The position numbers and the translations under genes were made by a program. A stretch of DNA of 36,063 nt from Candidatus Woesearchaeota archaeon (GTDB lineage: Archaea > Nanobdellota > Nanobdellia > SCGC-AAA011-G17 > GW2011-AR18), in the NCBI GenBank assembly GCA_964395935.1, contig CAYNBR010000003.1, forward strand, positions 1-36,063. Direction: 5' to 3'. This document shows positions 5,274 through 30,676 of the stretch, piece after piece. Numbering within the stretch: the stretch's first letter is position 1; the number at the start of each line of letters is the position of its first letter. The notes below the pieces were generated by a model, which saw only the letters and a program-made list of their open reading frames with translations, searched no databases and was not told where the DNA came from.

Positions 5274-5275
5274 AA

Positions 5276-11966: not shown

Positions 11967-12433
11967 GCTTTATAGATGAAAATGCAAATATAGGTCTTTT
12001 TGTATTAATTGTGGTAATTGCTTGTGCTGTTGTTGCTTTAACTTTTTTTTATCAAGATAATTTTTTACAGATAAATACTAGATATAATGATAAATTAAAT
12101 GAATTAAATAATACTTTCCAGAAACTACAAGGTGCACAATCGCAACTTAACCAGACTGCAGAAGAATTACAATTAAAATCACAAAGGGAACAAGATTTAT
12201 CTGGAAAGTATACAGATGTAAAAAGTCAGAAGGATTCTTTACAGAAAGAAAGAGATGATTTAAGTGAATTGACTAATGAACAGGAAGATAATATCCGAGC
12301 CTTAAATTCGACAGTTAAAGATCTTAAGAGTCAAATTAATGATAAAGACAATAAAATCTCTAGTTTGCAAGACCAAATAAGTAATCTGCAAAATACAATT
12401 AGCTGTTTGAGGGCTGGAAATGCAAATTGTTGA
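11963..12433 (+). CDS. membrane-anchored coiled-coil protein
   Basis: 156 aa. One N-terminal TM (IGLFVLIVVIACAVVALTFF), then ~110 aa of Q/E/K/L/N-rich heptad-like sequence. Ends ...SCLRAGNANC (2 Cys). ATGA overlap upstream and 14-nt overlap downstream. Confidence 0.6.
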   Translation: MSFIDENANIGLFVLIVVIACAVVALTFFYQDNFLQINTRYNDKLNELNNTFQKLQGAQSQLNQTAEELQLKSQREQDLSGKYTDVKSQKDSLQKERDDLSELTNEQEDNIRALNSTVKDLKSQINDKDNKISSLQDQISNLQNTISCLRAGNANC

Positions 12434-13208
12434 GAAAGCATTAAAGGAACTTAAAAAAGTATTATTTATTTTAGATTTTAGCGGTAAATTTTTAAATTTT
12501 TTGTTAATACTCCTGTTTATTCTATTGTTGTCTAATCTTCTTAATTTTCCTTGGATTTATGCAGTTATTTTAAGTACAATATATTTAATTATAGTTTTAA
12601 CTTTATCTTTTTTTGAAAATAAATTTTTAATTGTTGAAGGTAAGGTTCCAGAACTAAATGAACAACTTAGGACTGTTGCTGACAATGTAAATAGGACTAA
12701 TCCTATAATTGACGGCTTAAAAGAAGATGTTGTTAAGAATATGAAAAAAGTTAAGACTTCTTATTTCATAGATGAGAAAAGAATCGGGGTAAAAATAATA
12801 ATTCTTTGTGGATTGGCATTTTTAATTGTGTTTCTTTCTTTTCTAAATATAAACTTTAATTTTAATGGTTTTAATTTTAATGTACAAGAAACTTTAAATG
12901 GTATAGGTATTAGAAATTATAGTTCTGAACCAGTACATTTGAATTTTTTTTTATCACAAGGCAATTTAAGTGATATACTTGGAAATAAAAGTATTGCTAC
13001 TCTTGGAAATAAAGATTTATTGTTAACTATTAATCCTTTAGAAAGTGATGCTGATTTGAGCACTGTGCAAAAAGAAGAATCAAATGAATTTAATCAACCA
13101 GATTTTCCAAAAGAGATATATACTAGATATGACGCTTCATATAACGAGAAGATAGCTAAAGAAAATCAGAAGGTTGTTAAAACTTATTTCGATCAAATAA
13201 CAAGGTGA
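12420..13208 (+). CDS. hypothetical polytopic membrane protein of the MoxR operon
   Basis: 262 aa. Two TM segments near the N-terminus and one near residue 130 (IIILCGLAFLIVFLSFL). No recognised motif. Ends 4 nt before moxR. Confidence 0.55.
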   Translation: MQIVEKALKELKKVLFILDFSGKFLNFLLILLFILLLSNLLNFPWIYAVILSTIYLIIVLTLSFFENKFLIVEGKVPELNEQLRTVADNVNRTNPIIDGLKEDVVKNMKKVKTSYFIDEKRIGVKIIILCGLAFLIVFLSFLNINFNFNGFNFNVQETLNGIGIRNYSSEPVHLNFFLSQGNLSDILGNKSIATLGNKDLLLTINPLESDADLSTVQKEESNEFNQPDFPKEIYTRYDASYNEKIAKENQKVVKTYFDQITR

Positions 13209-13212
13209 GAAT

Positions 13213-14151
13213 ATGAATATAGATGAAATACAGAAGAGATTCAAAGCACTATATTTTGAAGTTGCTAGATCTGTTGTAGGCCAAGAAGATGTTGTTGAAC
13301 AAACTGTTGCTGCTATTTTATGCAATGGTCATGCTTATTTAGAAGGATATCCAGGATTAGCTAAAACTTTACTTGTTAAAACTTTATCAAATGTTTTGGA
13401 TTTAAGATTCAGCAGAATACAAGGAACTCCTGATTTACTGCCTTCAGATATTACAGGAACTTATGTTATTGATGAAAGCAAAGGTAAAAAGGAATTTAAA
13501 TTTCAACCTGGGCCAATATTTGCAAATATTGTTTTAGTTGATGAAGTTAATAGGGCTACTCCTAAAACGCATTCTGCTATTTTGGAAGCCATGCAGGAAA
13601 AACAAGTTACTGTTGGTAATGCTACGTATAAATTGGAAGAACCTTTCTTTGTTTTAGCTACAGGAAATCCTATTGAGCAGGAAGGTGTTTTTAAATTAAG
13701 TGAAGCACAAATTGACAGGTTTTTATTTAAAATAAATGTTGTATATCCTAAATTCGATGATGAAGTTAAGATTGTAGATATGTACAGCGATAAAGATGCT
13801 TCAGATATTAAATTGAGAAAATTATTTACTAAAGATGAATTATTAAAATTACAGATGTTAACTAAGCAAGTTCCAGTTGCTAATGATATGAAGAAATATG
13901 CTGTTGAAATTGTTGATAAAACTAGAAAGAATAAAGCCTTGATTGAGTATGGTGCTAGTCCAAGAGCAAGTATTAATTTAATTTTAGCAGCTAAGGCTAG
14001 AGCATTAATGAATGGAAGAAAGTATGTTTCTAAAGAAGATATTAATGTTATGGCTTATCCTGTTTTGAGGCATAGAATCATATTAAGTTTTGAAGCTGAA
14101 AGACAAGGATTAACTGAGGATGCAGTTATAACTAAGATTCTTAAAGGTTAA
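13213..14151 (+). CDS. moxR: MoxR-family AAA+ ATPase (AAA_3)
   Basis: 312 aa. GHAYLEGYPGLAKT (Walker A), RIQGTPDLLPSDITGT, VLVDEVNRATPKT (Walker B), LATGNPIEQEGVFKLSEAQIDRF. AGGTGA SD 6 nt upstream. Confidence 0.9.
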   Translation: MNIDEIQKRFKALYFEVARSVVGQEDVVEQTVAAILCNGHAYLEGYPGLAKTLLVKTLSNVLDLRFSRIQGTPDLLPSDITGTYVIDESKGKKEFKFQPGPIFANIVLVDEVNRATPKTHSAILEAMQEKQVTVGNATYKLEEPFFVLATGNPIEQEGVFKLSEAQIDRFLFKINVVYPKFDDEVKIVDMYSDKDASDIKLRKLFTKDELLKLQMLTKQVPVANDMKKYAVEIVDKTRKNKALIEYGASPRASINLILAAKARALMNGRKYVSKEDINVMAYPVLRHRIILSFEAERQGLTEDAVITKILKG

Positions 14152-14157
14152 GAATTA

Positions 14158-14172
14158 AACTGAGCTTCAGTT
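14158..14172 (+). terminator. short hairpin between moxR and DUF58 gene (possible attenuating or processing element)
   Basis: AACTGA-GCT-TCAGTT (6-bp stem, 3-nt loop) 6 nt after the moxR stop. Only a weak T-rich tail (ATGCATTTCTT), so terminator function is doubtful. Confidence 0.2.
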
Positions 14173-14235
14173 ATGCATTTCTTAGTTCTGCCAGCAAGAG
14201 TTAATTTATTAAACAAGAAAGTTCTATAATTCTTA

Positions 14236-15084
14236 ATGATTAATACGGACTTTTTAAGACAACTTGAAAAATTTAATTTAGTAATAAGAAAGAAGGTTGC
14301 TTCTAGCTTTACAGGTGAGAGAAGGGCAGATATTGGAGGTTCAGGATTAATATTTAGAGATTATTCTAATTATCAATATGGAGATGATTTTAAAAATATA
14401 GACTGGAAGGCTTATGCAAGAACTGAGAAATTTTACGTTAAAAGATATGAAGAGGATCGAAACTTAACTATTCATATTCTTTTAGACTTAAGTGGCAGTA
14501 TGGATTTTGGAAGTAAGATAAAAAAATATGAGTTTGGAGCAATGATTGCTTTAGGTTTTTCCTATATTGCAATGAAGAATAATGAAAAGTTTGTTTTAAG
14601 TACTTTTGATGATAAATTAGAATTTTTTAAACCGCAAAAAGGTAAGCATCAATTAGCTTCAATATTAGAATATTTAAATAGTAAACAAGCTAAGGGCGTA
14701 AGCAGCTTTGAAAAATCTTTACTTTCTTATAGATCATTAATAAATTCTAAGGCTATGGTGATTATTATTTCTGACTTTTTTTATAGTCCAGAAGAAATTA
14801 AGAATATTTTACATAGGTATAAGGGAAATAAAATAAAATTAATACAAACTTTAGATTATTTAGAAAACAATATGAATTTAGAAGGAGATTATAATTTAAT
14901 AGATTTAGAGAGTGATGCCAGAATGAGGACTTTTATAGATCCATTTTTAAGAAAACAATATTTTGAAAAGTTGAATGCACATAATGCTATGATTGTAGAA
15001 GCTTGCAATAGTGTTAAAGCTGATTTTTTTAAAGTTACTAATGATGAAAACATATTTGATGTATTCTATAGGATATTAACTTAA
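14236..15084 (+). CDS. DUF58-family protein (VWA-like, MoxR partner)
   Basis: 282 aa. FRDYSNYQYGDDFKNIDWKAYARTEKFYVKRYEEDR followed by ILLDLSGSM is the canonical DUF58 signature. Confidence 0.85.
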   Translation: MINTDFLRQLEKFNLVIRKKVASSFTGERRADIGGSGLIFRDYSNYQYGDDFKNIDWKAYARTEKFYVKRYEEDRNLTIHILLDLSGSMDFGSKIKKYEFGAMIALGFSYIAMKNNEKFVLSTFDDKLEFFKPQKGKHQLASILEYLNSKQAKGVSSFEKSLLSYRSLINSKAMVIIISDFFYSPEEIKNILHRYKGNKIKLIQTLDYLENNMNLEGDYNLIDLESDARMRTFIDPFLRKQYFEKLNAHNAMIVEACNSVKADFFKVTNDENIFDVFYRILT

Positions 15085-15520: not shown

Positions 15521-16042
15521 ATGGTTTATTTGTATCATATAGTACCAAAAAATATGAAAGGTAATATTCTTTATCCATTGAACAGATTAAAGAAAGTTTA
15601 TCCTGAAGTTTATAAAAAGCAAATTACTAAATATGTCGGAAGAGAACGAATTATGTGGCAAAAAATTATTTATTTAAATTGTAAATGGAATGATGTTATT
15701 CACTTAACTCCTGTAAATCCTTCAAAAATCAACAAAACTTTACTAGCCATCGGTCTTAAACTGATAAAATGTAAGTGGTATAAGATTAATGCAAATATAT
15801 TGGATCCTAAAAAAACTGTGATTTATAAATATTTATCTGATAAAATCCCTCTACCAATATCTGATTATGAAAAATACAATCCTAATAAGCTTGTTAAATA
15901 TAACAAGATTCCATTACTTTTGAAAAGATATTACTCTCAACAATTTAAAAATAAGACTAAACCTCTTTTATTTCATTTAATTCCTCATGTTTTATATAAG
16001 GGAAATATAAAAGTGGAAAATCTAGAAATAATAAAAACTTAA
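15521..16042 (+). CDS. conserved hypothetical protein (start revised from 15452)
   Basis: The track ORF overlaps the previous gene by 32 nt. The internal ATG at 15521 gives MVYLYHIVPKNMKGNILYPLNRLK ... CKWNDVIHLTPVNP. From memory this resembles an uncharacterised family seen in Firmicutes (unverified). Confidence 0.5.
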   Translation: MVYLYHIVPKNMKGNILYPLNRLKKVYPEVYKKQITKYVGRERIMWQKIIYLNCKWNDVIHLTPVNPSKINKTLLAIGLKLIKCKWYKINANILDPKKTVIYKYLSDKIPLPISDYEKYNPNKLVKYNKIPLLLKRYYSQQFKNKTKPLLFHLIPHVLYKGNIKVENLEIIKT

Positions 16043-17517
16043 TTTATAATTACAACTTTACTTAAGTCTTCTTTTAATGCTTCTTTTAACTTTTCTTGAT
16101 TTTCTGCGTAAATTGTGAATAAACTAGTATTTTCTAAAATTTTATCATTTAATTTTACATTTAAGTAAATTCCAGAGCCTTTATCTGATGGTGCACCTGC
16201 TATTTTTGCAATTCTTGCTATAGAATTGTTACTTATATATACAATATTTCCGGATTTTTTAGATTTAAATTCATATCTGTATTTGCCAAGTTTAATATCT
16301 TCTGGTTGAATATTTGGATTTCCGCCCTGTACTTTAATTATATCTTTCATTTTTCTATATGCAAAACCAGATTCTAGAATTTCTAATGCTTTTTGCTGTC
16401 CATTTTTTATTCCTGCCATTTCTAAAATCATTCCAGCCATACAAACACTTTTATTTCTTAGATCTAATGGGCCGCGATTTTGAAGTACTAAAAGAACATC
16501 CCTCGCTTCTAATGCCGGGCCTATTCCATTTCCTATTGGCTGGGAGCCTCCTGTTATTATAACTTTAATTTTCATTTTTAATTTTTTACCAAGTTTAATA
16601 AATTTTTTAGCTAATTTTTTTGCAACTTTAAAATTTGTTATCTTTGCTTCTTTTCCTATCGGAATATCTATTAGAATATGTGTAGAGTCTACTGCAGATT
16701 TTTTTGCTAATATTGAAGCTAATAAAATTCCTTCTGGATCTAAATTTAATACTTTTTCTAATCTAATTAGTTTATCATCTGCAGATGCTAAGTCTAAAGT
16801 GCCACCCCATACGATGCATGCATTTGTTTTTTCTACAATCTGCATAATTTTTTCTTTTGAATGGGAAACTGGAGCAAGAACCTCAAACATATCGGCAGTG
16901 CCACTTGGTGAAGTGATTGATCTTGTGGAAGTTTTTGGAATTGTCAAACCAGCTGCTGCAACTATTGGTACTATTATTGGTGTTGTTCTATTTCCACTTA
17001 ATCCTCCGATACAATGTTTGTCTACTATAATTTTTTTATTAAATTTTAGTTTGCCGCCATTTTTTACTATTGCTTCTGTTAAATAAGCAGACTCATCCAA
17101 AGTCATCTTATTTGTATAACAGGCAGATACAAAATAAGTTGATTCTACTTCTGTTAATTTATTTTCAACTAGGTCTTTTATTATTAAATAAATTTCTTCT
17201 TTATTTAATGTAAAACCATCTAATTTCTTTTTAATGTATAATAATGATTGCGGTTTTGGTTCTAAGAAAACTTCAAGGCGTTCATTATTTTTTACTTTTA
17301 GTTCTTCTGCAACATCTATAAATAATCCTATCTCTGTTGGAGCTATTTCTCTTTTTCCATAAGCAACATCAACAGCAACAACTAATTCTTTATGGCCTTT
17401 TTTTATCTTTATTCTATCTAATGGCTCTAAGTCTAAAAGAATTGCATCTTTTTTATTTAAAATTGCTATTAATGGCCCCTTTGTTGCAATTTGTAATGTT
17501 TTAACTTTTAATTTCAT
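16039..17517 (-). CDS. deoA: AMP phosphorylase (archaeal thymidine-phosphorylase-family enzyme with N-terminal extension)
   Basis: 492 aa. N-terminal ~85-aa extra domain (MKLKVKTLQIATKGPLIAILNKKDA...). HCIGGLSGNRTTPIIVPIVAAAGLTIPKTSTRSITSPSGTADMFE ... WGGTLDLASADDKLI ... LASILAKK closely tracks the Thermococcus AMPpase as I remember it. Confidence 0.85.
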   Translation of the reverse strand: MKLKVKTLQIATKGPLIAILNKKDAILLDLEPLDRIKIKKGHKELVVAVDVAYGKREIAPTEIGLFIDVAEELKVKNNERLEVFLEPKPQSLLYIKKKLDGFTLNKEEIYLIIKDLVENKLTEVESTYFVSACYTNKMTLDESAYLTEAIVKNGGKLKFNKKIIVDKHCIGGLSGNRTTPIIVPIVAAAGLTIPKTSTRSITSPSGTADMFEVLAPVSHSKEKIMQIVEKTNACIVWGGTLDLASADDKLIRLEKVLNLDPEGILLASILAKKSAVDSTHILIDIPIGKEAKITNFKVAKKLAKKFIKLGKKLKMKIKVIITGGSQPIGNGIGPALEARDVLLVLQNRGPLDLRNKSVCMAGMILEMAGIKNGQQKALEILESGFAYRKMKDIIKVQGGNPNIQPEDIKLGKYRYEFKSKKSGNIVYISNNSIARIAKIAGAPSDKGSGIYLNVKLNDKILENTSLFTIYAENQEKLKEALKEDLSKVVIIN

Positions 17518-18487: not shown

Positions 18488-18510
18488 TAAACATAATTAG
18501 TAGGGAGCAT

Positions 18511-18518
18511 TTATAAAG
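18511..18518 (+). promoter_or_regulatory. candidate TATA box (leaderless asnB-dph6 fusion gene)
   Basis: TTATAAAG centred ~25 nt upstream of ATG 18539. Confidence 0.45.
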
Positions 18519-18538
18519 CTTTTTGATTTTTTAGTTTT

Positions 18539-20611
18539 ATGTGCGGTATAATTGGATTATGTAATATAAAAAATGCAGATAAAATAGTTAGAGTAGGATT
18601 GAAATTTATGAATTATAGGGGGATGGATGGTACTGGAATAGTTTCTAAATCAGATTTTACTTTTGGCCATTGTTTACATTCAATAGTTGGAAATGTTAAA
18701 CAACCTATCGGTACTAAGAACATATTTGCTGCTAACTGTGAAGTTTATAATTGGGAAAATTTGCGTAATAATCATAAAATTAATGCTAAAAATGATTCTG
18801 AATTATTTTATTTTTTACTAGATAAAATTGGGATAGATAAAACTTTAGAATTAGTTGACGGGGATTATGCATGTGCTTATTTTAAAGAGAATAAAATTTA
18901 CTTGTTTAGGGATTTATTTGGAGTTAAGCCCTTATGGTACACAAATGAAAACGGTTTTGCTTTTGCTTCTGAGAAAAAGGTTTTGGAGAGTTTAGGATAT
19001 AGACATATTGATGATTTGAATCCCAGGAAAATATTAATTTATGATTTGAAAACTAAAAAGATTAAATTTACTGAAAGGAAATTTTTTGAGATAAAACCAG
19101 AACATGATGAAGATTATGATAAGATTAAAAAAATAACACAAGGTTTGTTAATAAATGCCATAACTAAAAGAATTCCTGGTTGTAAATTTGGATTATTATT
19201 CTCTGGAGGGGTAGATTCTGCATTTATAGCTTTAGTATTAAAACAATTAGGAATTAGCTTTAAGTGCTATATTTGTGTACTAGATGAACCTAAGTTTAAC
19301 AAACCTAAAGATTTAGAATCTGCTGAAAGAATTGCTAAAGAATTAGAATTAGATTTAGAAATTGTTAAAGTAAAATTAAATGATGTTGAAAATAATATTG
19401 GAAAAATTGTAAATATTATAGAATCTAGTAATATTACTAAATTGGGAGTTGCTTTGCCTTTTTATTTTGCTACTAAAAGAGCAGGAGAAGAAGGCTGCAA
19501 GGTAATGTTTTCCGGTTTGGGAAGTGAAGAAATATTTGCAGGATATGAAAGACATAAAAATAGCGGTAATGTGAATAAGGAATGTTATTCTGGATTATTG
19601 TGGCTCTATGAAAGAGATTTGTATAGAGATGATGCTGTTTCAATGGCAAATAATGTAGAAATTAGGGTTCCTTTCCTTGACAAAGCACTAGTAGATTATG
19701 CGTTGAAAATACCTGCAAAATTTAAATTGAATGAAGAGAATAATAAAATAATTTTAAGAGGGATAGCAAATTCAATGGGCTTAAATAAAGAATTTGCATT
19801 TAGAAAGAAAGTAGCAGCACAATATGGAAGTAATTTTGATAAAGCTATAGACAAATTAGCAAGACAGAGTAAATTTAAAACTAAATCTGAATACGTAAAT
19901 CAGTTTTACAATAAACCAAATGTTAAACTTGGAGTATTATTTTCTGGTGGTAAGGATAGTACATATGCGATGCATGTTATGTATAAACAAAATTATAGTA
20001 TTGAGTGTTTGATTTCTATGAAGAGTAAAAATAAAGATTCTTTTATGTTTCATACTCCAAATATTGATTTTGTTAAATACCAATCTATGGCTTTAGAAAT
20101 TCCTTTAGTTATGGGTGTTACTCAAGGTAAAGAGGAATATGAATTGGAAGATTTAAAAAAAGTATTAGAGAAAGCTAAAAAGAAACATAAGATACAGGGT
20201 ATAATTACCGGGGCTTTATTTTCCAGTTATCAAAGAGATAGAATTGAGAAAATATGTGAAAGTATAGGATTGAAAGTATTTTCTCCTTTGTGGCATAAAA
20301 CTCAGGAACAAGAATTAAAAGAAATAGTTAAAGAAGGTTTTGAAGTAATTATAATTGCTGTTGCTGCTGATGGATTTAATAAAACTTGGCTGGGAAGAAA
20401 AATTGATATGAAAACTATAGATGAATTAAAAAAATTAAACCATAAAGTTGGAATAAATGTAGCTGCGGAAGGTGGAGAATATGAAACGTTTGTTTTGGAT
20501 GCACCTATGTTTAAGAAAAAATTAGAAATTAAAAAAGCTAAGGCTATAATGGATGGAGAATATTCTGGTGTTTATTTTATTGAGAAGATTGAATTAAAAG
20601 ATAAACTTTAA
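18539..20611 (+). CDS. fusion protein: glutamine-amidotransferase/asparagine-synthetase-like (AsnB) module + Dph6/MJ0570-type diphthine-ammonia-ligase-like ATP pyrophosphatase domain
   Basis: 690 aa, continuous ORF.
- aa 1-~190: Ntn class-II GATase (MCGIIG, YRGMDG, NCEVYN, NDSE).
- aa ~200-440: Asn-synthetase domain with PP-loop SGGVDS (19202..19219).
- aa ~462-690: VLFSGGKDSTYAM (PP-loop 19943..19960), GALFSSYQRDRIEKICESIGLKVFSPLW, EGGEYETFVLDAPMF, the Diphthami_syn_2 signature. Confidence 0.8.
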   Translation: MCGIIGLCNIKNADKIVRVGLKFMNYRGMDGTGIVSKSDFTFGHCLHSIVGNVKQPIGTKNIFAANCEVYNWENLRNNHKINAKNDSELFYFLLDKIGIDKTLELVDGDYACAYFKENKIYLFRDLFGVKPLWYTNENGFAFASEKKVLESLGYRHIDDLNPRKILIYDLKTKKIKFTERKFFEIKPEHDEDYDKIKKITQGLLINAITKRIPGCKFGLLFSGGVDSAFIALVLKQLGISFKCYICVLDEPKFNKPKDLESAERIAKELELDLEIVKVKLNDVENNIGKIVNIIESSNITKLGVALPFYFATKRAGEEGCKVMFSGLGSEEIFAGYERHKNSGNVNKECYSGLLWLYERDLYRDDAVSMANNVEIRVPFLDKALVDYALKIPAKFKLNEENNKIILRGIANSMGLNKEFAFRKKVAAQYGSNFDKAIDKLARQSKFKTKSEYVNQFYNKPNVKLGVLFSGGKDSTYAMHVMYKQNYSIECLISMKSKNKDSFMFHTPNIDFVKYQSMALEIPLVMGVTQGKEEYELEDLKKVLEKAKKKHKIQGIITGALFSSYQRDRIEKICESIGLKVFSPLWHKTQEQELKEIVKEGFEVIIIAVAADGFNKTWLGRKIDMKTIDELKKLNHKVGINVAAEGGEYETFVLDAPMFKKKLEIKKAKAIMDGEYSGVYFIEKIELKDKL

Positions 20612-20880
20612 CTAAATATAGAAACTATGGCTTTTTGCAGGATTATTATAGTTAAAATTAAAGTTATAGACCAATGAGACATACCATAAGAAGCACTTGC
20701 TAGGTAAATGCCTGTAAAAACATCAATAAGGCTTACCATATCTCCAATAATAGCAAAGAAAACACCCTTAATAATTAAATATAAAGCCATTACAATTATT
20801 ATAGACTGAGGTAATAGTGTGCCTAGAAATAAGGCAATTAATGCTAATAAATCTGCTAAACCTAATAATTTTAATATCAT
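20608..20880 (-). CDS. small hypothetical membrane protein (3 TM)
   Basis: 90 aa, almost entirely hydrophobic. Its stop overlaps the stop of the convergent upstream gene. Confidence 0.5.
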   Translation of the reverse strand: MILKLLGLADLLALIALFLGTLLPQSIIIVMALYLIIKGVFFAIIGDMVSLIDVFTGIYLASASYGMSHWSITLILTIIILQKAIVSIFS

Positions 20881-21316: not shown

Positions 21317-21952
21317 ATGCAAAAACAAGTAAATAAAAAACATTATTTGAAAGATTATGATACAGTTGAGAGGTTTATTTCGTATTATTATCAATGCAGC
21401 CTTATTTTAGATTTAAAGGTTAAAAATGCTTTAGAAATTGGAATTGGAAATAAATTAACTTCTAATTATTTAAAAAATTGTGGTGTTAAAGTTGTTACTT
21501 GTGATATAGATAAAGAGCTAAAAGCAGATTATATTGCGGATGTAAGAAAATTACCTTTCCCTAATTCTAAATTTGATGCTGCTTATGCTTTCCAAGTTTT
21601 AGAACATTTACCATTTGAAGATTTTGAGACAGCATTAATTGAACTTCATAGAGTGAGTAAAAAATATGTAATAATTTCTTTGCCTTGCAGTTCTACTAGT
21701 TTTGAATTAATTTTAAGATTTCCTTTTATTAATAAACTCTTTAAAAAAAATTACCTTGACTTATTTTTAAGATTTCCTTATTTTTTTAAAAAATATAAAT
21801 TTGATGGGCAGCATTATTGGGAACTTTATAGTAAAGGATGTTCGCTTAGAATAATAAGAAATAAATTGAATGCTAAATTTAAAATTATTAAAGAAGTAAG
21901 ACCTGAAATCAATAGTTATCATTATTTCTTTGTTTTAGAGAAAAAGTTTTAG
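21317..21952 (+). CDS. class I SAM-dependent methyltransferase (start revised from 21266)
   Basis: ATG 21317 avoids overlap with the divergent gene. ALEIGIGNKL (motif I), CDID, AYAFQVLEHLP (Methyltransf_11-like). Confidence 0.65.
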   Translation: MQKQVNKKHYLKDYDTVERFISYYYQCSLILDLKVKNALEIGIGNKLTSNYLKNCGVKVVTCDIDKELKADYIADVRKLPFPNSKFDAAYAFQVLEHLPFEDFETALIELHRVSKKYVIISLPCSSTSFELILRFPFINKLFKKNYLDLFLRFPYFFKKYKFDGQHYWELYSKGCSLRIIRNKLNAKFKIIKEVRPEINSYHYFFVLEKKF

Positions 21953-22818
21953 TCGATTAAACTATTAGAAATTAGATTAGAAACATCAATTTTTGAGTAT
22001 TTGTTGTTTATTGTATTTGTTGTAATTATGGACTTCACGTTTTTCTTTATTTCAGCTAAAACTTTCTCTCCTGCAAAAATTCCATGGATTGCTATAACAT
22101 TTATTGATTTTGGTTTATGATTTTTTATTAACTTTACAGCTTCTAGAATTGTATGTCCTGAAGAGATTATATCGTCGATTATTACTACATCTTTATTTTT
22201 TAAATCTATGTTTGTAGAAAGACTTACTTTAACCTTATTTGAACCAAATCTTTTCTTTTCTAGTATTACTGCTTCTGCGTTTATTTTATCTGCTATTTCT
22301 TTAGCCCATTGATAACTTTCTGCATCAGGACCCAATATTACTGGATTTTTATAATTTCTATTAATAAAATTAAATATTAATTCATTGGCTGTTAATTTTT
22401 TTGTTTTGGTATTAAAGACTTCGCTTAATGACTTAAATCTATGTAAATGAGGATCTATACTAATTATTTCGTCTGCTTTATCTAATAGTTTTCCTATTAT
22501 TTTTCCAGAAACTGCTTCACCAGGCTTAAATCTTTTATCTTGCCTTATGTAAGCTAAGTAAGGGATAACTAAAATTAATTTTTTGCATTTTAATTCTTTT
22601 GCTGTGTGCATTGCTAAAATTAATTCTAACAGTGCTTCATTTGAGGGATTTAATGTTTGAACTAAAACTACTTCCTTATTCTCTAATTCTGTGTTAAACT
22701 TTATGTATAATTCGCCATCTGGAAATTTATTTACTATTAATTCTGAATATTCACATTTTAAATTTTTAGAAATCTTTTTTGCAAGTTCTCTTGAATTTGA
22801 ACAACCTATAATTAACAT
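21949..22818 (-). CDS. prs: ribose-phosphate pyrophosphokinase
   Basis: 289 aa. FPDGELYIKF, IPYLAYIRQDKRF, DPHLH and VVIIDDIISSGHTI (PRPP-binding loop). GAGGTGA SD 5 nt upstream on the minus strand. Confidence 0.9.
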   Translation of the reverse strand: MLIIGCSNSRELAKKISKNLKCEYSELIVNKFPDGELYIKFNTELENKEVVLVQTLNPSNEALLELILAMHTAKELKCKKLILVIPYLAYIRQDKRFKPGEAVSGKIIGKLLDKADEIISIDPHLHRFKSLSEVFNTKTKKLTANELIFNFINRNYKNPVILGPDAESYQWAKEIADKINAEAVILEKKRFGSNKVKVSLSTNIDLKNKDVVIIDDIISSGHTILEAVKLIKNHKPKSINVIAIHGIFAGEKVLAEIKKNVKSIITTNTINNKYSKIDVSNLISNSLID

Positions 22819-24227: not shown

Positions 24228-27017
24228 ATGAGTGAAGGAACTTTAGAAAATAGGAAAGAGAAATTATTTAATTTTTTCAAATTAAAAGTTGAATGGTTAC
24301 AATATGTTGTACTTGCAGTTATTGTATGGGCTGGTTGGATTATAAGAGTACAACCTATAAACAAATTAATAGATGTTACAACTGGTAAATATATTTCTCT
24401 TGAATTGGATTCAACCTTATTTTTAAGATATGCTGAATATATTGCTGAACATGGGAAGCTATTCTTAATAGATTCACTCAGATATTTTCCCAGAGGTGCG
24501 AACATAGATATTACTATTTTTTCATCTTATTTTGTAGGTTATATATATAGAATTTTGCATGCTTTAGGATTTAGTGGGAGCGTTGCTTTAGTTAATGATT
24601 ACTATCCTTTAATTGTTACTGCCATAATGAGTATATTTTTATTCTTATTAATAAGAAAGATGTTTGAATGGAAGACTGCAGCATTAACTGTTCTACTGAT
24701 TAATGTGCTTCCATCTTTTTTATTTAGAAGTATGGGTGGAAGTTCAGACCACGATATCTTAGGAATGATGTTTCTTGTTATGGCATTTTACTTTTATTTA
24801 TTGGCTTTAGAAGCTAAAAAAATCAAATTTAATATATTATTTGGATTCATAGCAGGAGTAATTGCTGTTCTTGGATTAATGACTGCCGGTTCTATTAACT
24901 TCTTTTTTATGACTGCTTCTGTTTTTATATTGATTGAAATAGTTCTCAATAGATTAACAAAAAATGATTTTGTAGTATTAACTTCTTTTTTGCTTACTTT
25001 CACATTGTTGCTTATTGGCATGAATAGAAACTCATTAACAGGGCTAATTGCTTCATTTACTACTGGATTATTTTATTTAGATTTTATTGTCGGTTTATTC
25101 TATTTGTATATAATAAAAACTTCAAAATTTTCAAAACTACTTGAAAAATATAATAAATTAAAAAATATTCCAATAGGATTGCTATCTTTATTATTTGGAT
25201 TAATCTCCTCCTTTTTTCTAACTTTAATATTATTTGGTTCCGGTTTTCTTAGTGAGAGAATTGCCGCATTCTCGCAGACTTTGTTTAAGTCTTTTTCATT
25301 GACTAGGTGGGTATTAACAGTAGCCGAAAACAGACAACCCTATGTTCAAGATTGGTTTGGACAATACGGCACAATTATTGTTTATGCTTTCATACTTGGA
25401 GCAATACTCCTATTCTACGATGCAATAAAAAATTCAAAAAGAGCTAAATATTTAACTTTAAGTTATACTATTTTTATATTTCTTTACATATTTTCTAGAT
25501 ACTCGGGAAGTAGTATATTGAATGGTACTTCAGGATTGTCTCACTTTCTATTTTTTGGTTCTTTAATTACATTCTCTTTATTTATTTTGATATATTATTT
25601 TTATATATATAATAAAGAAAGAGATGAATTTGATGCTCTAACTAAATTTGATAAAAAACATATTCTTATATTGGTTTTTTCACTTGTTATGATTCTTATA
25701 GCTACTTCTGCTATTAGATTCTTGTTTGAATTTACACTCCCAATAGTAATCTTAGCTTCTTATTTTATAGTCTATATTGTTGAATATCTGTATCATTCAA
25801 AGAATAAAAACTTATTATTTTTTGCCTCATTTGTTTTGGCGTTTTTCTTTGTAAAGGAAACTATGAAATTGAGCGGGATTATAGAATTTTTATTATTTTT
25901 ATTAATTACTGGGGGTGTAGCTTATTTTGTTTATTCTAAAAAACAACTTAATTATGCAAGTTATGCCTGTATCATTATAATACTTTTAATGTTATTCTCA
26001 CCATTTGCTTTTGCTAAAGGAGTTGTTACTAATTATTATCAGGTTAGTTATGACAATGCAAAATTCTCTGGCCCGGGGTATAATCAACAATGGCAATATG
26101 CAGGTAAATGGGTGAGAGAAAATACTCCTAAGGAGGCAGTATTTGCACACTGGTGGGATTATGGTTATTGGGTACAAAGTGGTTTTGAAAGAGCAACTGT
26201 TACAGATGGTGGAAATTTCTTTGGATGGTGGAATTACTTAATGGGTAGGAATGTATTAACTGCACAAACTGATGAAGAGTCACTAGGTTATTTATATGCG
26301 CATAATGTCACTCACTTATTAATGGTCTCAGATGAAATTGGGAAGTATTCTGCATATTCTTCTATAGGGAGCGATGCTGCTGGAGATAGGTTTTCTTATA
26401 TACCTACTTTTAGTTTAGATCCTAATACTATTAGAAAGACAAGGAATGAGACACTATACTACTTTACAGGGGGTTTTGCTTTAGATGAAGATCTTAATTA
26501 CAATGGTAAAATAATACCCAGAGGAGGGGCAGGTATTGCTGCAGTGGTTGTTCCAACTTACGAAATTGAGAATAATGGGAATAAATCTACTGCTTTCAGT
26601 CAACCTAGAGCAATTTTGATTTATCAGGGGCAGCAATATGAGCTGCCTATGAGGTGCTTTTATTTAGATCACTTATATACTTATAGTAATTATGCTTATG
26701 GTGGTTGTTTAAGAATTATTCCAGTTATACAAAATAATCAAGCAAATAACTTTGCAGCAGGATTATTTTTATCTCCCACTACTTCCCACAGTAATCTCGG
26801 TAGACTATACCTACTCAATGAGCCATCTGATTACTTTAAACTTATTTATGATGATACAAACTTAGGCGTGCCTTTATCGATATATAATGGCAATCTAATC
26901 GGACCAATAAGAATTTGGGGAGTTAATTACCCTAAAGATTTTAAACTTAGTAAGGAAGATATGGACTTTTATTTACAAACTTCCTATCCTGATCAATCTT
27001 TATTAAATCCAATTTAA
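24228..27017 (+). CDS. aglB: archaeal oligosaccharyltransferase, STT3 homolog
   Basis: 929 aa. ~13 N-terminal TM segments plus a C-terminal soluble domain. WWDYG at 26151..26165 (AHWWDYGYWV). Acidic motifs LELD (first loop) and SSDHD. DEIGK (DK-like) about 60 aa after WWDYG. Confidence 0.9.
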   Translation: MSEGTLENRKEKLFNFFKLKVEWLQYVVLAVIVWAGWIIRVQPINKLIDVTTGKYISLELDSTLFLRYAEYIAEHGKLFLIDSLRYFPRGANIDITIFSSYFVGYIYRILHALGFSGSVALVNDYYPLIVTAIMSIFLFLLIRKMFEWKTAALTVLLINVLPSFLFRSMGGSSDHDILGMMFLVMAFYFYLLALEAKKIKFNILFGFIAGVIAVLGLMTAGSINFFFMTASVFILIEIVLNRLTKNDFVVLTSFLLTFTLLLIGMNRNSLTGLIASFTTGLFYLDFIVGLFYLYIIKTSKFSKLLEKYNKLKNIPIGLLSLLFGLISSFFLTLILFGSGFLSERIAAFSQTLFKSFSLTRWVLTVAENRQPYVQDWFGQYGTIIVYAFILGAILLFYDAIKNSKRAKYLTLSYTIFIFLYIFSRYSGSSILNGTSGLSHFLFFGSLITFSLFILIYYFYIYNKERDEFDALTKFDKKHILILVFSLVMILIATSAIRFLFEFTLPIVILASYFIVYIVEYLYHSKNKNLLFFASFVLAFFFVKETMKLSGIIEFLLFLLITGGVAYFVYSKKQLNYASYACIIIILLMLFSPFAFAKGVVTNYYQVSYDNAKFSGPGYNQQWQYAGKWVRENTPKEAVFAHWWDYGYWVQSGFERATVTDGGNFFGWWNYLMGRNVLTAQTDEESLGYLYAHNVTHLLMVSDEIGKYSAYSSIGSDAAGDRFSYIPTFSLDPNTIRKTRNETLYYFTGGFALDEDLNYNGKIIPRGGAGIAAVVVPTYEIENNGNKSTAFSQPRAILIYQGQQYELPMRCFYLDHLYTYSNYAYGGCLRIIPVIQNNQANNFAAGLFLSPTTSHSNLGRLYLLNEPSDYFKLIYDDTNLGVPLSIYNGNLIGPIRIWGVNYPKDFKLSKEDMDFYLQTSYPDQSLLNPI

Positions 27018-27020
27018 AAT

Positions 27021-28508
27021 ATGGTTAAAAATTCAAATAAGAAAATTTTGTATTTATCTGTCTTTCTGTTATTAATTAATTTTATTTACAGATTGTTAAA
27101 TCAGTCTAAAATGTTGAAGTATTTTCCTGTTGATTATAATATAGATGGTGCTTCTTATATGGCCCAACTTTATTTTTTAAAAAATTGTGGATTCCATAAG
27201 ATTTGTTATTATTGGTATAATGGTTTTATCAATTTTTTACATAGTCCTCCAGGATGGTATCTATTTACTTTACCTATATTTGAAACTTTTAAATCAGTAA
27301 ATGTTGCAACATATTTAAGTATGCTGTTAATCTTTTTACTATTATTTATCATAATTTATTTTCTCTTTGGTTCTATAGGTCTGTCTAGATTTAAAAGAAT
27401 TGCTTTATTTATTTTCTTCTTCGGAAATGCTATCGCTGTAGGTAATTTTATTAAACTTATAAGGGTTCATGAACTCTTTGCCTGGATGAACTTTTTCCTT
27501 TTCTTTTTCTTAATTTACTATTTTAAAGATAGAAAAATTGATTGGAGGTATTGGCTTGTTGTGCCTTTCTATGCAATAATACTTTTATCATATCAAAGTG
27601 TTGGAGTAATTACTTCTTTATTGTTCTTATCCATTTTTTTGGTTAAAAATGGCAAGGAAAAATTAATTGTTTGCATTTCTGCTCTCCTCTCTTTGTTAGT
27701 CAGCGCTTTTTGGTGGCTACCAGCCATTCTCAAAATTAATGAGGGCGGTTTGAATACGTTACATCAGGCCACTTGGGTTTGGAGATTTGACACTTTAAAT
27801 TTTTATACTAATATTTTTGTCACAATAATCCCTTTAATTTTTTTTATTGTATTTTATTATTATATTAAAAATCTAAAGAGCAAATCTAAAGAATTATTAT
27901 TTTATTCACCCATATTATTTCTCGCTTTGATATTTTTCTTAAGACTGCACCCATTTATACCTATATTTAATAATATTTTTCCAGATCCGTATTTGATATT
28001 CTTCATATTTTTTATAATCTTTTGTTTTTTGAAAATCGATATCTCACTAATAAGATTTTCAAATTATGTTTCTTACATTTTACTATTTATAGTTCTCCTA
28101 AGCTTATCTTTTAATTTGTTTAGGACTCCCCTTTTTGTTGTCCCTGATCAGCCTTTGAACTTGCAGATAGAAGAAACTCTTAAAAATGTAGAAGGTTCTT
28201 TTTTGATGTTTGGATACTTTGGATCTAAAATAAATCCTAAAAATGTTTATTCTTATGCACCAACTAAATACAATCTCACAACAGCTTATGGTTGGTATCC
28301 TGAAGTAAAAAATGAAGTTTATTTTAAAGGTATTCAACTTTTAGATGGTTATTTTAATGATAATAATTGTAAAGGCTTTTTATCTGTTTTACATACTTAC
28401 AATGTGAGTAATATTATTAGTTTAAATGAGAACTGTGACTTCTTTAATAGGTGTAAATTAAAAGAAAAGGTTAAAAAAGATTCTGTTTGTTTATATGATG
28501 TGAATTGA
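27021..28508 (+). CDS. uncharacterised polytopic membrane protein, possible GT-C-fold glycosyltransferase
   Basis: 495 aa, ~11-13 TM. Acidic first loop PVDYNIDGASY right after TM1. YYWYNGFINFLHSPPGWYLF resembles the PTPS-related/GT-C membrane protein families (weak, from memory). 3-nt spacer after aglB. Confidence 0.45.
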   Translation: MVKNSNKKILYLSVFLLLINFIYRLLNQSKMLKYFPVDYNIDGASYMAQLYFLKNCGFHKICYYWYNGFINFLHSPPGWYLFTLPIFETFKSVNVATYLSMLLIFLLLFIIIYFLFGSIGLSRFKRIALFIFFFGNAIAVGNFIKLIRVHELFAWMNFFLFFFLIYYFKDRKIDWRYWLVVPFYAIILLSYQSVGVITSLLFLSIFLVKNGKEKLIVCISALLSLLVSAFWWLPAILKINEGGLNTLHQATWVWRFDTLNFYTNIFVTIIPLIFFIVFYYYIKNLKSKSKELLFYSPILFLALIFFLRLHPFIPIFNNIFPDPYLIFFIFFIIFCFLKIDISLIRFSNYVSYILLFIVLLSLSFNLFRTPLFVVPDQPLNLQIEETLKNVEGSFLMFGYFGSKINPKNVYSYAPTKYNLTTAYGWYPEVKNEVYFKGIQLLDGYFNDNNCKGFLSVLHTYNVSNIISLNENCDFFNRCKLKEKVKKDSVCLYDVN

Positions 28509-28509
28509 T

Positions 28510-29325
28510 TTGAAAAATCTTATATTAACTTTTGACTTGGAAGAGTTTGTAACTCCTGCTGAAATAGGTTTGAATATAGATAAAGCAATTCTATTTAATA
28601 TCTCGTTGCGTGGTTTTGATAATATAATAAATTTACTTGAAAAACATCCAAGAATAAAAGTTACTTTTTTTACTACAGTTGAGTTTGCTGAATATGCTGA
28701 AACTAAATTGAAAAAATTAATAAGTAAGGGTCATGAGCTCGCATTACATGGACTTTATCACAATACAAATATTTCAAAAATGAGTGAAAATGATGCGAGA
28801 ACTGAACTTTTACTAGCAAAAAATAAACTTGAAAGTTTATTTAAAATTAAAGTTACAGGATATAGGTCTCCACAAATGCGTCCGTTTAATTCAAAAATTC
28901 TTAAGGATATAGGGATTGAATATAATAGCTCGATGCATCCTACATATGTTCCTGGAAGGGATAATTATTTCTTTGAAAAAAGAAGTGCTTATTTTAATGA
29001 GATTTATCAAGTTCCAGTTTCAGTTACACCCTTAATTAGATTGCCATTTTCATGGATTTGGTTTAGAAATATGCCTTTAGTTTATTCAAAATTGTGTACT
29101 AAATTAACTTACTTGGATCAAAACTACGTAAATATATATTTTCATCCTTGGGACTTTTTTGATGTTGATAAAAATCCGTTTACTAATAAGATTATGAAAC
29201 TTATAATTAGGAATACAGGGAGTAAAATGATTCATAAATTTGATAAATATCTTGATTGGTGTGAAAATAATTTTAATTCTGTTACTATGGGGGAATATGT
29301 AAATGAGTGTAAGAAATTATTTTGA
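28510..29325 (+). CDS. polysaccharide deacetylase (CE4-like)
   Basis: 271 aa. TTG start 1 nt after the upstream stop, with no nearby in-frame ATG. ILTFDLEEF ... ELALHGLYH ... GYRSP are motifs of NodB/DUF3473-type deacetylases. Confidence 0.65.
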   Translation: MKNLILTFDLEEFVTPAEIGLNIDKAILFNISLRGFDNIINLLEKHPRIKVTFFTTVEFAEYAETKLKKLISKGHELALHGLYHNTNISKMSENDARTELLLAKNKLESLFKIKVTGYRSPQMRPFNSKILKDIGIEYNSSMHPTYVPGRDNYFFEKRSAYFNEIYQVPVSVTPLIRLPFSWIWFRNMPLVYSKLCTKLTYLDQNYVNIYFHPWDFFDVDKNPFTNKIMKLIIRNTGSKMIHKFDKYLDWCENNFNSVTMGEYVNECKKLF

Positions 29326-29914: not shown

Positions 29915-29938
29915 AAACTTACTTTAGATCTTTTATTT

Positions 29939-30634: not shown

Positions 30635-30676
30635 TACATAGAAACTTTTATAATAATCCAGTTTGTTTCTTTTTCT

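What the first reader, a model, noticed from the sequence alone, without database searches (positions are those of the whole stretch)
18539..20611. Single polypeptide fusing an AsnB-type glutamine amidotransferase/synthetase to a Dph6-type diphthine-ammonia ligase domain (two PP-loops)
Seen directly: one uninterrupted 690-codon ORF. It carries an N-terminal Cys-2 Ntn glutaminase (MCGIIG), an asparagine-synthetase PP-loop domain (SGGVDS) and a complete MJ0570/Dph6-like domain (SGGKDS ... YQRDRIE ... PLW ... GEYETFV).

Established knowledge: Dph6 amidates diphthine on EF-2 using ATP and free ammonium and has no amidotransferase partner. AsnB channels glutamine-derived NH3 to an adenylated carboxylate.

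Inference (Rosetta-stone logic): the fusion could be a glutamine-dependent diphthamide synthetase. Alternatively the AsnB-like half could amidate something other than aspartate, functionally linked to EF-2 modification. Eukaryotic Dph6 is instead fused to YjgF-like domains, so this architecture is different. I do not recall it being characterised.
Basis: partly seen in the sequence, partly recalled or inferred. Interest (0 to 1): 0.7.

Follow-up and report, generated by a model that had tools for sequence, protein, structure and literature searches.

The report
AsnB-like amidotransferase fused to Dph6
This gene really does encode one protein joining an asparagine-synthetase-like amidotransferase to the enzyme that finishes the diphthamide modification of elongation factor 2, but the fusion is common in DPANN archaea, was described in 2012, and its AsnB-like half lacks residues a true asparagine synthetase needs.

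Summary
Window 18539-20611 (+) is one 690-codon ORF with a Cys-2 Ntn glutaminase, an Asn_synthase PP-loop domain (SGGVDS) and a complete archaeal Dph6 domain (SGGKDS; TIGR03679 286 bits, cut-off 197).

It is not an assembly chimera. More than 120 independent 90% clusters and 78 of 80 GTDB species loci carry the same fusion with a short conserved junction. These span Woesearchaeota/Nanoarchaeia, Iainarchaeia, Nanohaloarchaea, Altiarchaeota and Methanolobus/Methanomethylovorans.

It is not new. De Crecy-Lagard et al. 2012 (PMC3541065) described this fusion and proposed that glutamine supplies the NH3. No experimental test was found in the library searched.

What I add:
- The AsnB-like half is a distinct, strongly conserved subtype. 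The glutamine-anchoring Arg49 is always Leu, and the catalytic Glu348 is never acidic. It misses the AsnB equivalog cut-off.
- The same subtype also exists as stand-alone genes that are not next to Dph6.
- It also exists as GATase-less "synthetase-like + Dph6" proteins.

Best reading: this is the organism's Dph6, joined to a non-canonical amidotransferase that probably supplies or relays NH3. It is a member of a known but uncharacterised fusion family. Interest is moderate to low.

The parts
18539..20611 (+). Whole 690-codon ORF (TAA stop at 20609-20611): an AsnB-like amidotransferase fused to Dph6
   Evidence: An identical protein (P0001) is already in NCBI.
18539..19093 (+). Class-II (Ntn) glutamine-amidotransferase domain, aa 1-185. 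Cys2 is at 18542-18544, N66-C67-E68 (Ec N74-G75-E76) at 18734-18742 and D86 (Ec D98) at 18794-18796.
   Evidence: Pfam GATase_6/7. Alignments to 1ct9 and 6gq3. Cys, Asn, Glu and Asp are invariant in 120/120.
18674..18676 (+). Leu46 codon, at the position of E. coli AsnB Arg49 / human ASNS Arg-48 (the glutamine alpha-carboxylate anchor). It lies in the family motif H-x-L-H-S.
   Evidence: mapping; Leu in 120/120; Leu in 81/81; role of Arg-48.
19094..19174 (+). Inter-domain helix/linker, aa 186-212; the least conserved segment
   Evidence: mean conservation 0.50, no invariant column; helix 193-209.
19175..19912 (+). Asn-synthetase-like PP-loop (ATP pyrophosphatase) domain, aa 213-458. PP-loop SGGVDS is at 19202-19219, D360/R363 (Ec D384/R387) at 19616-19627, K403 (Ec K429) at 19745-19747 and K424 (Ec K449) at 19808-19810.
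   Evidence: fold match to AsnB/ASNS with target TM 0.76-0.79.
19511..19531 (+). Motif SGLGSEE, aligned to AsnB SGEGSDE. Leu327 (19517-19519) replaces the catalytic Glu348 (human Glu-364).
   Evidence: mapping. L in 115/120. L 61, S 11, otherwise I/F/Q/N/M, never E or D; human E364A and E364Q are inactive.
19913..19924 (+). Four-residue junction (KPNV) between the AsnB-like C-terminal 'KSEYxxxFY' motif and the first strand of Dph6
   Evidence: junction conserved in length and sequence across independent assemblies; same frame in 78 of 80 loci.
19925..20608 (+). Dph6 (diphthine--ammonia ligase, DUF71/PF01902 + PF28410) domain, aa 463-690. PP-loop SGGKDS is at 19943-19960 and EGGEYE at 20468-20485.
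   Evidence: TIGR03679 285.9 > 197.3; PH1257 E 1e-64, PF0828 E 3e-60; PF0828 S44, E78, Y103, Q104, A149, E183, E186 and E188 equivalents conserved; target TM 0.96.
18488..18538 (.). 51-bp divergent intergenic region shared with the AI-2E-type permease gene on the minus strand. TTTATAAA at 18510-18517, about 25 nt before the ATG, is a candidate archaeal TATA box and would imply a leaderless or very short-leader mRNA. This is inference only.
   Evidence: Sequence read; neighbouring ORF.

Best explanation
The ORF encodes a member of the already described AsnB-like/DUF71 fusion family.

The C-terminal domain is the organism's diphthine--ammonia ligase (Dph6). It binds ATP at SGGKDS, adenylates the carboxylate of diphthine on archaeal EF-2 and replaces AMP with NH3 to give diphthamide. 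This is inferred from equivalog-level homology and conserved residues.

The N-terminal two domains are a divergent class-II amidotransferase of the AsnB fold, not a canonical asparagine synthetase. The Cys-2 Ntn nucleophile, the oxyanion Asn, and Glu76 and Asp98 are intact, so the module most likely still releases NH3 from an amide donor, presumably glutamine bound in a non-standard way because Arg49 is Leu. The PP-loop domain still binds ATP/PPi (SGGxDS, K429 and K449 conserved), but it has lost the Glu that commits AsnB to beta-aspartyl-AMP formation.

The most likely role of this module is to serve Dph6, supplying or relaying NH3 through the AsnB-type tunnel. That would make the whole protein a glutamine-dependent diphthamide synthetase. 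The synthetase-like PP-loop domain is the obligatory partner of Dph6 and the GATase is a dispensable accessory.

Shown here: the domain identities, the residue pattern, and the distribution of fused, unfused and GATase-less forms. Inferred: NH3 production, channelling to Dph6, and the loss of Asn-synthetase activity.
For: - **Dph6 identity.** TIGR03679 scores above its cut-off. The domain is about 44% identical to PF0828/PH1257, with E about 1e-60 and target TM 0.96. All residues proposed as catalytic or EF-2-facing are conserved.
- **All three domains are under comparable purifying selection.** Each has 31-42 invariant columns among 120 members at 52-69% identity. The junction is short and conserved, and the AF2 model of the whole chain has pLDDT 89 and pTM 0.81, consistent with a fixed inter-domain arrangement.
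- **The fusion recurs widely.** 78 of 80 species loci from at least five archaeal lineages carry it. The Methanosarcinales copies nest within DPANN copies.
- **The module is not a standard AsnB.** R49 is Leu in 120/120 and 81/81. E348 is never acidic. TIGR01536 scores below its cut-off. Human ASNS E364A and E364Q are inactive even with NH4+, Glu-364 lines the synthetase end of the ammonia tunnel, and Arg-48 lies in the Gln-recognition network.
- **The synthetase-like + Dph6 core persists without a GATase.** About 13 of 120 clusters have this form, some on contigs up to 285 kb, with no upstream GATase remnant. This ties the two PP-loop domains together.
- **DPANN genomes keep and express an 'AsnB'.** Nanohaloarchaea and Woesearchaeota lack amino-acid pathways, including those for Asp and Gln, yet retain this gene. 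That fits a housekeeping, translation-linked role better than Asn supply.
- **The hypothesis is already published.** The same idea was proposed from the fusion in 2012.
Against: - No biochemical data exist for the fusion, nor for any archaeal Dph6.
- Stand-alone AsnB-like genes with the same signature are common in the same lineages and are not next to a Dph6 gene. The module can therefore work without a covalent link and may have its own substrate.
- The first PP-loop and the PPi-binding lysines are invariant, which argues that this domain adenylates something itself rather than being a passive conduit.
- Four of the five residues modelled around the aspartyl moiety in ASNS are conserved (Ec D351 as Glu/Asp, E352, D384, R387), so an amino-acid substrate is not excluded.
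- Loss of Arg49 leaves glutamine use itself uncertain.
- GATase-less forms show that Gln hydrolysis is not essential to the core.
- I could not obtain model coordinates or PAE, so no tunnel to either PP-loop site was tested.
- The window contains no dph2, dph5 or EF-2 gene, and no conserved dph neighbour appears in 88 loci.
Confidence: 0.45

Rival explanations
1. Two independent enzymes on one chain: a working glutamine-dependent asparagine synthetase with a variant active site, plus an ordinary NH3-dependent Dph6. On this view the fusion reflects only co-expression or a shared ammonia pool.
For: - AsnB/ASNS are the best structural and sequence matches for residues 1-458, and TIGR01536 is only 13 bits below its cut-off.
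- Conserved in all members: Cys1, N74, E76, D98, the PP-loop, D351(E)/E352/D384/R387 and K429/K449.
- Stand-alone versions exist and are annotated AsnB.
- The published view already allowed NH3 to go to both PP-loop enzymes.
Against: - The E348 position is never acidic across 81 loci and varies among L, S, I, F, Q, N and M. Human E364A and E364Q are dead even with NH4+.
- R49, conserved even in PurF and TsnB9, is always Leu.
- The host lineages lack Asp and Gln biosynthesis.
- Synthetase-like + Dph6 fusions without a GATase recur.
- The tight conserved junction and pTM of 0.81 argue for an integrated protein.
Confidence: 0.25
2. The AsnB-like module is an amidoligase for a different carboxylate, either a second modification on EF-2 or another translation component, or a small molecule. 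It would be functionally but not mechanistically linked to Dph6. AsnB-fold enzymes are known to have been recruited to other substrates (beta-lactam synthetase, CarA, TsnB9).
For: - The active-site signature is distinct and strictly conserved: the H-x-L-H motif, an invariant K301, YERDLYRDD and AAQYGS.
- The first PP-loop is invariant.
- The subtype is large: 570 50%-representatives at E<=1e-30. It occurs alone, fused, and without a GATase.
- Other AsnB-fold enzymes with different chemistry are the next-best structural matches.
Against: - No candidate substrate emerges from gene neighbourhoods.
- Diphthine has only one carboxylate.
- The acidic cluster that binds the aspartyl alpha-amino group in ASNS is retained, so the substrate may still be amino-acid-like.
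Confidence: 0.2
3. Artefact: a mis-assembly or an unnoticed frameshift has joined two neighbouring genes.
For: None beyond the a priori possibility for a metagenome-like contig.
Against: - The same fusion appears in more than 120 independent clusters and in 78 of 80 species genomes, including a complete chromosome (L071, Ca. Nanosalina VS9-1).
- The junction is conserved.
- Composition is uniform across the ORF.
Confidence: 0.01

Closest known systems
AsnB(GAT-II + Asn_Synthase_B_C)-DUF71 fusion proteins of Methanohalophilus mahii, Methanosalsum zhilinae and Ca. Nanosalinarum J07AB56 (de Crecy-Lagard et al. 2012, Biol Direct 7:32)
   Same: The order of the three domains in one polypeptide is identical. 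Homologous fusions from Methanolobus, Methanomethylovorans and Nanosalina were recovered with the window protein's AsnB-like half at 41-47% identity, and they carry the same R49L / non-acidic-348 signature. The functional hypothesis is also the same.
   Different: This copy comes from a roughly 28% GC Woesearchaeota-like contig; its best relative is 69% identical. The 2012 paper did not report the active-site substitutions, the stand-alone subtype or the GATase-less forms.
Archaeal stand-alone Dph6: PF0828 (PDB 3rjz/3rk0/3rk1) and PH1257 (2d13)
   Same: Residues 463-690 align end to end at about 44% identity with target TM 0.96. The PP-loop and the E183/E186/E188, Y103/Q104, S44 and E78 equivalents are conserved.
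   Different: Those proteins are about 220-230 aa single-domain enzymes. Here the domain is C-terminal to a 460-aa amidotransferase module.
Glutamine-dependent asparagine synthetase: E. coli AsnB (1ct9) and human ASNS (6gq3)
   Same: The two-domain fold matches (target TM 0.76-0.79). Also shared are the Cys1 nucleophile, N74, E76, D98, the PP-loop, D384, R387, E414(Hs), K429 and K449.
   Different: Differences are R49->Leu, G75->Cys, E348->Leu and no Arg in the 'TTIRAS' segment (an invariant Lys is one residue earlier). The C-terminal roughly 90 residues of AsnB are replaced by Dph6. The score is below the TIGR01536 cut-off.
Yeast Dph6 (YLR143W): DUF71 fused to two RidA/YjgF domains
   Same: A Dph6 catalytic domain is fused to a module suspected of providing NH3, and in yeast the accessory domains are required for function.
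   Different: The accessory module here is N-terminal, unrelated in fold, and contains a second PP-loop ATPase.
AsnB-fold enzymes with altered chemistry: beta-lactam synthetase (1jgt), carbapenam synthetase CarA (1q15) and the hydroxyamidotransferase TsnB9 (7ylz)
   Same: They share the fold and are the next-best structural hits. They are precedents for the AsnB scaffold acting on substrates other than aspartate after active-site changes.
   Different: BLS and CarA have lost the Cys1 nucleophile (from my own knowledge, not tested here), whereas this family keeps it. TsnB9 keeps the Arg49 equivalent, whereas this family does not.

Membership tests
Dph6 / diphthine--ammonia ligase (TIGR03679; Pfam PF01902 + PF28410) | Whole-domain match above the curated equivalog cut-off | tested here: met
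   285.9 bits against a cut-off of 197.3, profile positions 2-217 of 218. PF01902 at E 3.7e-70.
Dph6 / diphthine--ammonia ligase (TIGR03679; Pfam PF01902 + PF28410) | N-type PP-loop SGGKDS and the conserved residues proposed for catalysis and EF-2 contact (PF0828 S44, Y45, E78, Y103, Q104, A149, E183, E186, E188) | tested here: met
   All are present and invariant or nearly so across 120 members. Y45 is Tyr or Phe.
Dph6 / diphthine--ammonia ligase (TIGR03679; Pfam PF01902 + PF28410) | Fold of PF0828/PH1257 | tested here: met
   target TM 0.92-0.96, rmsd 1.2-3.0 A, using a model with pLDDT 89.
Dph6 / diphthine--ammonia ligase (TIGR03679; Pfam PF01902 + PF28410) | Genomic co-occurrence with dph2, dph5 and an EF-2 carrying the target histidine, and being the only Dph6 in the genome | not testable with these tools
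   None of these genes lies in the 36-kb window. Whole genomes could not be scanned.
Dph6 / diphthine--ammonia ligase (TIGR03679; Pfam PF01902 + PF28410) | ATP-dependent amidation of diphthine on EF-2 | not testable with these tools
   This needs biochemistry. Even the archaeal stand-alone Dph6 awaits experimental confirmation.
Asparagine synthetase B, glutamine-hydrolysing (TIGR01536 / EC 6.3.5.4) | Score above the curated equivalog cut-off | tested here: not met
   253.9 bits against 267.1. PRK09431 scores 209 against 499.
Asparagine synthetase B, glutamine-hydrolysing (TIGR01536 / EC 6.3.5.4) | N-terminal Cys1 nucleophile with the Asn74 oxyanion residue, Glu76 and Asp98 | tested here: met
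   invariant in 120/120. Gly75 is Cys in 113/120.
Asparagine synthetase B, glutamine-hydrolysing (TIGR01536 / EC 6.3.5.4) | Arg49 (human Arg-48), which binds the glutamine alpha-carboxylate | tested here: not met
   Leu in 120/120 and 81/81. Mapping; role.
Asparagine synthetase B, glutamine-hydrolysing (TIGR01536 / EC 6.3.5.4) | PP-loop SGGxDS and the PPi-binding Lys429 and Lys449 | tested here: met
   invariant.
Asparagine synthetase B, glutamine-hydrolysing (TIGR01536 / EC 6.3.5.4) | Glu348 (human Glu-364), required for beta-aspartyl-AMP formation | tested here: not met
   Leu327 in the window protein. L in 115/120. L/S/I/F/Q/N/M and never E or D in 81 loci. E364A and E364Q are inactive.
Asparagine synthetase B, glutamine-hydrolysing (TIGR01536 / EC 6.3.5.4) | The remaining aspartyl-binding cluster (Ec D351, E352, D384, R387) | tested here: met
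   E/D, E, D and R are conserved. D384 is Asn in 13 of 81 loci.
AsnB-DUF71 fusion family (de Crecy-Lagard 2012) | GAT-II, Asn_synthase PP-loop and DUF71 domains, in that order, in a single ORF | tested here: met
AsnB-DUF71 fusion family (de Crecy-Lagard 2012) | Homology over the full length to the fusions of Methanosarcinales and Nanohaloarchaea | tested here: met
   L043, L046, L048, L049 and L052 (Methanomethylovorans/Methanolobus) and L064 and L071 (Nanosalina) are fused and match residues 1-458 at 41-45% identity. They carry the same signature.

The most novel reading that the evidence does not exclude
The AsnB-like module (Arg49->Leu, non-acidic residue 348) defines an unrecognised archaeal amidoligase family that is not an asparagine synthetase. 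It would be a dedicated partner of Dph6, acting in cis in the fusions and in trans where it is stand-alone. Its second PP-loop would either relay NH3 to the diphthine-AMP site or carry out a further ATP-dependent step in EF-2 maturation. The 'AsnB' annotated as the last amino-acid-biosynthesis gene of many DPANN genomes would then be a translation-factor-modification enzyme.
Probability: 0.3. Interest if true: 0.6.

Novelty: new member of a known kind. Interest (0 to 1): 0.35.

Why it matters
[quoted passage not shown] This fusion family is the most direct natural hint that glutamine can be the donor. The residue pattern found here turns the question a reviewer raised in 2012, which PP-loop uses the NH3 and what the AsnB-like PP-loop does, into a set of concrete mutants and assays.

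There is also a practical annotation point. Metabolic reconstructions of DPANN archaea count this gene as 'asparagine synthase'. The missing Arg49 and Glu348 suggest that call may be wrong.

None of this makes the window's gene unusual. It is a typical member of a large family that is already known.

Tried and rejected
- **Chimeric assembly or frameshift.** Rejected from the recurrence of the fusion and the conserved junction.
- **Gene-neighbourhood clues.** I annotated 35 window ORFs with Pfam, inspected contexts of fused, stand-alone and GATase-less homologues, and clustered all ORFs of 88 loci. There are no dph2, dph5, EF-2, asnA, GatCAB or AsnRS neighbours. Only a weak Woesearchaeal synteny appears (MS channel, UPF0147, prefoldin, L37ae).
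- **Stand-alone AsnB-like proteins as truncated fusions.** True for a few: P0121 ends in the Dph6 PP-loop strand, and P0142 ends in adapter-derived sequence. It is rejected for most, which end naturally after the KxEYL motif and are followed by unrelated genes.
- **GATase-less forms as split genes.** Rejected for L088 and L089. hmmsearch --max and tblastn find no GATase remnant within 1.5-4 kb upstream. For P0233 the upstream gene is on the other strand.
- **Tunnel analysis.** Not possible, because the structure tool returns no coordinates or PAE. Only pLDDT, pTM and fold matches could be used.
- **Tree of the AsnB-like half.** It is NJ without support values and has long terminal branches. 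I use it only to say that fused and unfused forms interleave.
- **Literature searches for an experimental test of the fusion**. Nothing was found after the 2012 paper. Subscription journals are not covered.
- **Numbering of the AsnB Arg in the 'TTIRAS' segment.** It is R324 by 1ct9 chain count and Arg-325 in my memory of the literature. I therefore give this point little weight.
Full report
**Observation.** Window 18539-20611 (+) is a single 690-codon ORF with an ATG start and a TAA stop. Pfam finds GATase_6/7 (aa 30-150), Asn_synthase (about 216-445) and Diphthami_syn_2 (463-684, E 3.7e-70). NCBIfam places the C-terminal domain above the archaeal Dph6 equivalog cut-off (TIGR03679, 285.9 against 197.3 bits). 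It places the N-terminal 460 residues just below the AsnB equivalog cut-off (TIGR01536, 253.9 against 267.1). The window is about 28% GC and has no tRNA genes.

**Not an artefact, not rare.** A search of 5.8 billion clustered proteins returned 2699 hits at E<=1e-10. The best 120 clusters all have the same length (about 680-720 aa) and the same domain set. They come from NCBI, JGI, ENA and Logan assemblies and are mostly labelled Woesearchaeota or Nanoarchaeota. NCBI names them 'diphthine--ammonia ligase', and JGI names them either that or 'asparagine synthase (glutamine-hydrolysing)'.

In GTDB species-representative genomes, more than 387 loci encode a relative. Of the best 80, 78 have both halves in one frame. 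The lineages are Woesearchaeota/Nanoarchaeia, Iainarchaeia, Nanohaloarchaea (including a complete Ca. Nanosalina chromosome), one Altiarchaeota MAG, and Methanolobus/Methanomethylovorans. The junction is four residues long in the window protein and is conserved in length and sequence across assemblies.

**Already described.** De Crecy-Lagard et al. 2012 (PMC3541065) reported exactly this architecture, GAT-II + Asn_Synthase_B_C + DUF71, in Methanohalophilus mahii, Methanosalsum zhilinae and Ca. Nanosalinarum. [quoted passage not shown] I found no later experimental work. Even the stand-alone archaeal Dph6 is listed as awaiting confirmation (PMC8305020).

**The Dph6 half is orthodox.** It aligns end to end with PH1257 and PF0828 (E 1e-64 and 3e-60). 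The AlphaFold model superposes on them at target TM 0.92-0.96. The PP-loop and the residues the 2012 paper singled out (PF0828 S44, Y45, E78, Y103, Q104, A149, E183, E186, E188) are invariant or nearly so in 120 family members.

**The AsnB-like half is not orthodox.** Pairwise and profile alignments to E. coli AsnB (1ct9) and human ASNS (6gq3) give a consistent mapping.
- **Retained, invariant in 120/120:** Cys1, R30, N74, E76, D98, the SGGxDS PP-loop, D384, R387, human E414, K429 and K449.
- **Arg49 (human Arg-48):** this residue of the glutamine-recognition network is Leu in 120/120 family members and in 81/81 genome loci.
- **Gly75:** Cys in 113/120.
- **Glu348 (human Glu-364):** Leu in 115/120. 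Across the 81 loci it is L, S, I, F, Q, N or M and never acidic.

PMC6748925 reports that human E364A and E364Q are inactive even with ammonium, and calls the residue required for catalysis. Glu-364 also lines the synthetase end of the ammonia tunnel. All three domains show similar purifying selection, with 31, 42 and 40 invariant columns. This is therefore a functional, specialised subtype and not a decaying AsnB.

**The subtype has other architectures.** I searched 1.84 billion 50%-representatives with residues 1-455. That gave 570 hits at E<=1e-30. The best 150 break down as follows:
- 49 are fused to Dph6.
- At least 44 are full-length stand-alone proteins (MC… start, about 440-510 aa, natural C-terminus) with the same signature.
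- Some contain the synthetase-like domain only.
- A few contain the synthetase-like domain + Dph6 with no GATase.

The stand-alone genes occur in the same DPANN lineages and are flanked by unrelated genes, with no Dph6 alongside. One of them (L086) sits in the same MS-channel/UPF0147/prefoldin/L37ae neighbourhood as a fused gene (L001).

The GATase-less forms recur, at about 13 of 120 clusters. They lie on contigs up to 285 kb and have no GATase remnant upstream. In an NJ tree of the AsnB-like half, fused and unfused forms interleave and the Methanosarcinales fusions nest among DPANN sequences (no support values).

**Structure.** The AlphaFold2 model built from a 28-sequence alignment has mean pLDDT 89.2 and pTM 0.81 for the whole 690-residue chain. 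That suggests a defined arrangement of Dph6 against the AsnB-like module. Foldseek finds AsnB/ASNS, beta-lactam synthetase, CarA and TsnB9 for domains 1-2, and PF0828/PH1257 for domain 3. No solved fusion exists.

**Context.** The window carries cell-envelope and glycosylation genes, a MoxR/DUF58/VWA cluster, an AMP-phosphorylase-like gene, an AI-2E-type permease and PRPP synthetase. It has no dph2, dph5, EF-2, asnA, AsnRS or GatCAB. No conserved functional neighbour appears in 88 loci. DPANN genome papers note an 'AsnB' as one of the very few amino-acid-biosynthesis genes kept in Nanohaloarchaea, and expressed in Woesearchaeota, which otherwise lack Asp and Gln pathways (PMC10266531 and PMC11606122).

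**Interpretation.** I am confident (about 0.85) that the C-terminal domain is the organism's diphthamide synthetase. For the N-terminal module the evidence points away from ordinary asparagine synthesis and towards a role tied to Dph6. The conserved core is the pair of PP-loop domains, and the GATase is an accessory.

The most economical mechanism is glutamine- or NH3-fed diphthine amidation, with the AsnB-like domain relaying ammonia. I put this at about 0.45, because the invariant first PP-loop and the abundant stand-alone forms also fit an independent substrate. The rivals are a variant but genuine asparagine synthetase (0.25), an amidoligase for another carboxylate (0.2) and an artefact (0.01).

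**Verdict.** This is a correct observation of a typical member of a known, widely distributed, experimentally uncharacterised fusion family. The added value lies in the active-site signature and the alternative architectures, which sharpen an open question from 2012. The gene itself is not unusual.

Noticed in passing
window 7822-15084 (+): A cluster of BatA/VWA proteins (590 aa with DUF7407/DUF7408; 791 aa VWA), a coiled-coil protein, a DUF7502 protein, a MoxR-type AAA_3 ATPase (13213-14151) and a DUF58/VWA protein (14236-15084). This is a MoxR-VWA 'Bat-like' system in a DPANN-type contig.
   Followed up: partly
window 16039-17517 (-) and 21949-22818 (-): A 492-aa thymidine-phosphorylase-family protein with an N-terminal extension, which looks like an archaeal AMP phosphorylase, and a PRPP synthetase flank the finding. 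They look like nucleotide-salvage genes. No RuBisCO or R15P isomerase is in the window.
   Followed up: partly
window 24228-36005 (+): A long same-strand glycosylation cluster: a 929-aa STT3/AglB-like oligosaccharyltransferase, a polysaccharide deacetylase, two methyltransferases, GT2 and GT4 glycosyltransferases, a second PMT_2-like membrane protein and a Polysacc_synt flippase.
   Followed up: partly
window 1964-4582 (+): An 872-aa protein with only a weak S_layer_C match (E 5e-5). It is surrounded by several ORFs with no Pfam hit (129-1752 and 4671-5926).
   Followed up: no
window 18488-18538: The 51-bp divergent intergenic region has TTTATAAA about 25 nt upstream of the ATG of the fusion gene. 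This would fit an archaeal TATA box and a leaderless transcript.
   Followed up: no
window 20608-20880 (-): A 90-aa hydrophobic ORF with no Pfam hit converges on the fusion gene. Its stop codon overlaps the fusion gene's stop by 4 nt (20608-20611).
   Followed up: no
L084 14915-16128: In a genome with a stand-alone AsnB-like gene, a short (222 aa) Diphthamide_syn/Dph2-family gene is immediately followed by a 179-aa DnaJ-domain gene. This is reminiscent of the split Dph2 reported in DPANN and of the eukaryotic J-protein Dph4.
   Followed up: no
L086 8001-9656 compared with L001 10001-12076: A 551-aa stand-alone AsnB-like gene (P0340, with a roughly 90-aa C-terminal extension of unknown nature) sits in the same MS-channel/UPF0147/prefoldin/L37ae neighbourhood as a fused gene in another genome. 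This suggests fission or domain loss in situ.
   Followed up: partly
P0142 (protein, C-terminus): The representative ends in '…CLLYTSPSPRD…', which is the translation of the Nextera transposase adapter. A contig ending in adapter read-through has entered the protein collection.
   Followed up: partly
L077; proteins P0040 and P0378; many loci titled 'uncultured Methanosarcinales': Fusion genes that cluster with Woesearchaeota sequences sit in MAGs labelled Acidobacteriota, Bacteroidota, Patescibacteria or 'uncultured Methanosarcinales'. The likely cause is mis-binning or mislabelling, so taxon labels in this family need caution.
   Followed up: partly
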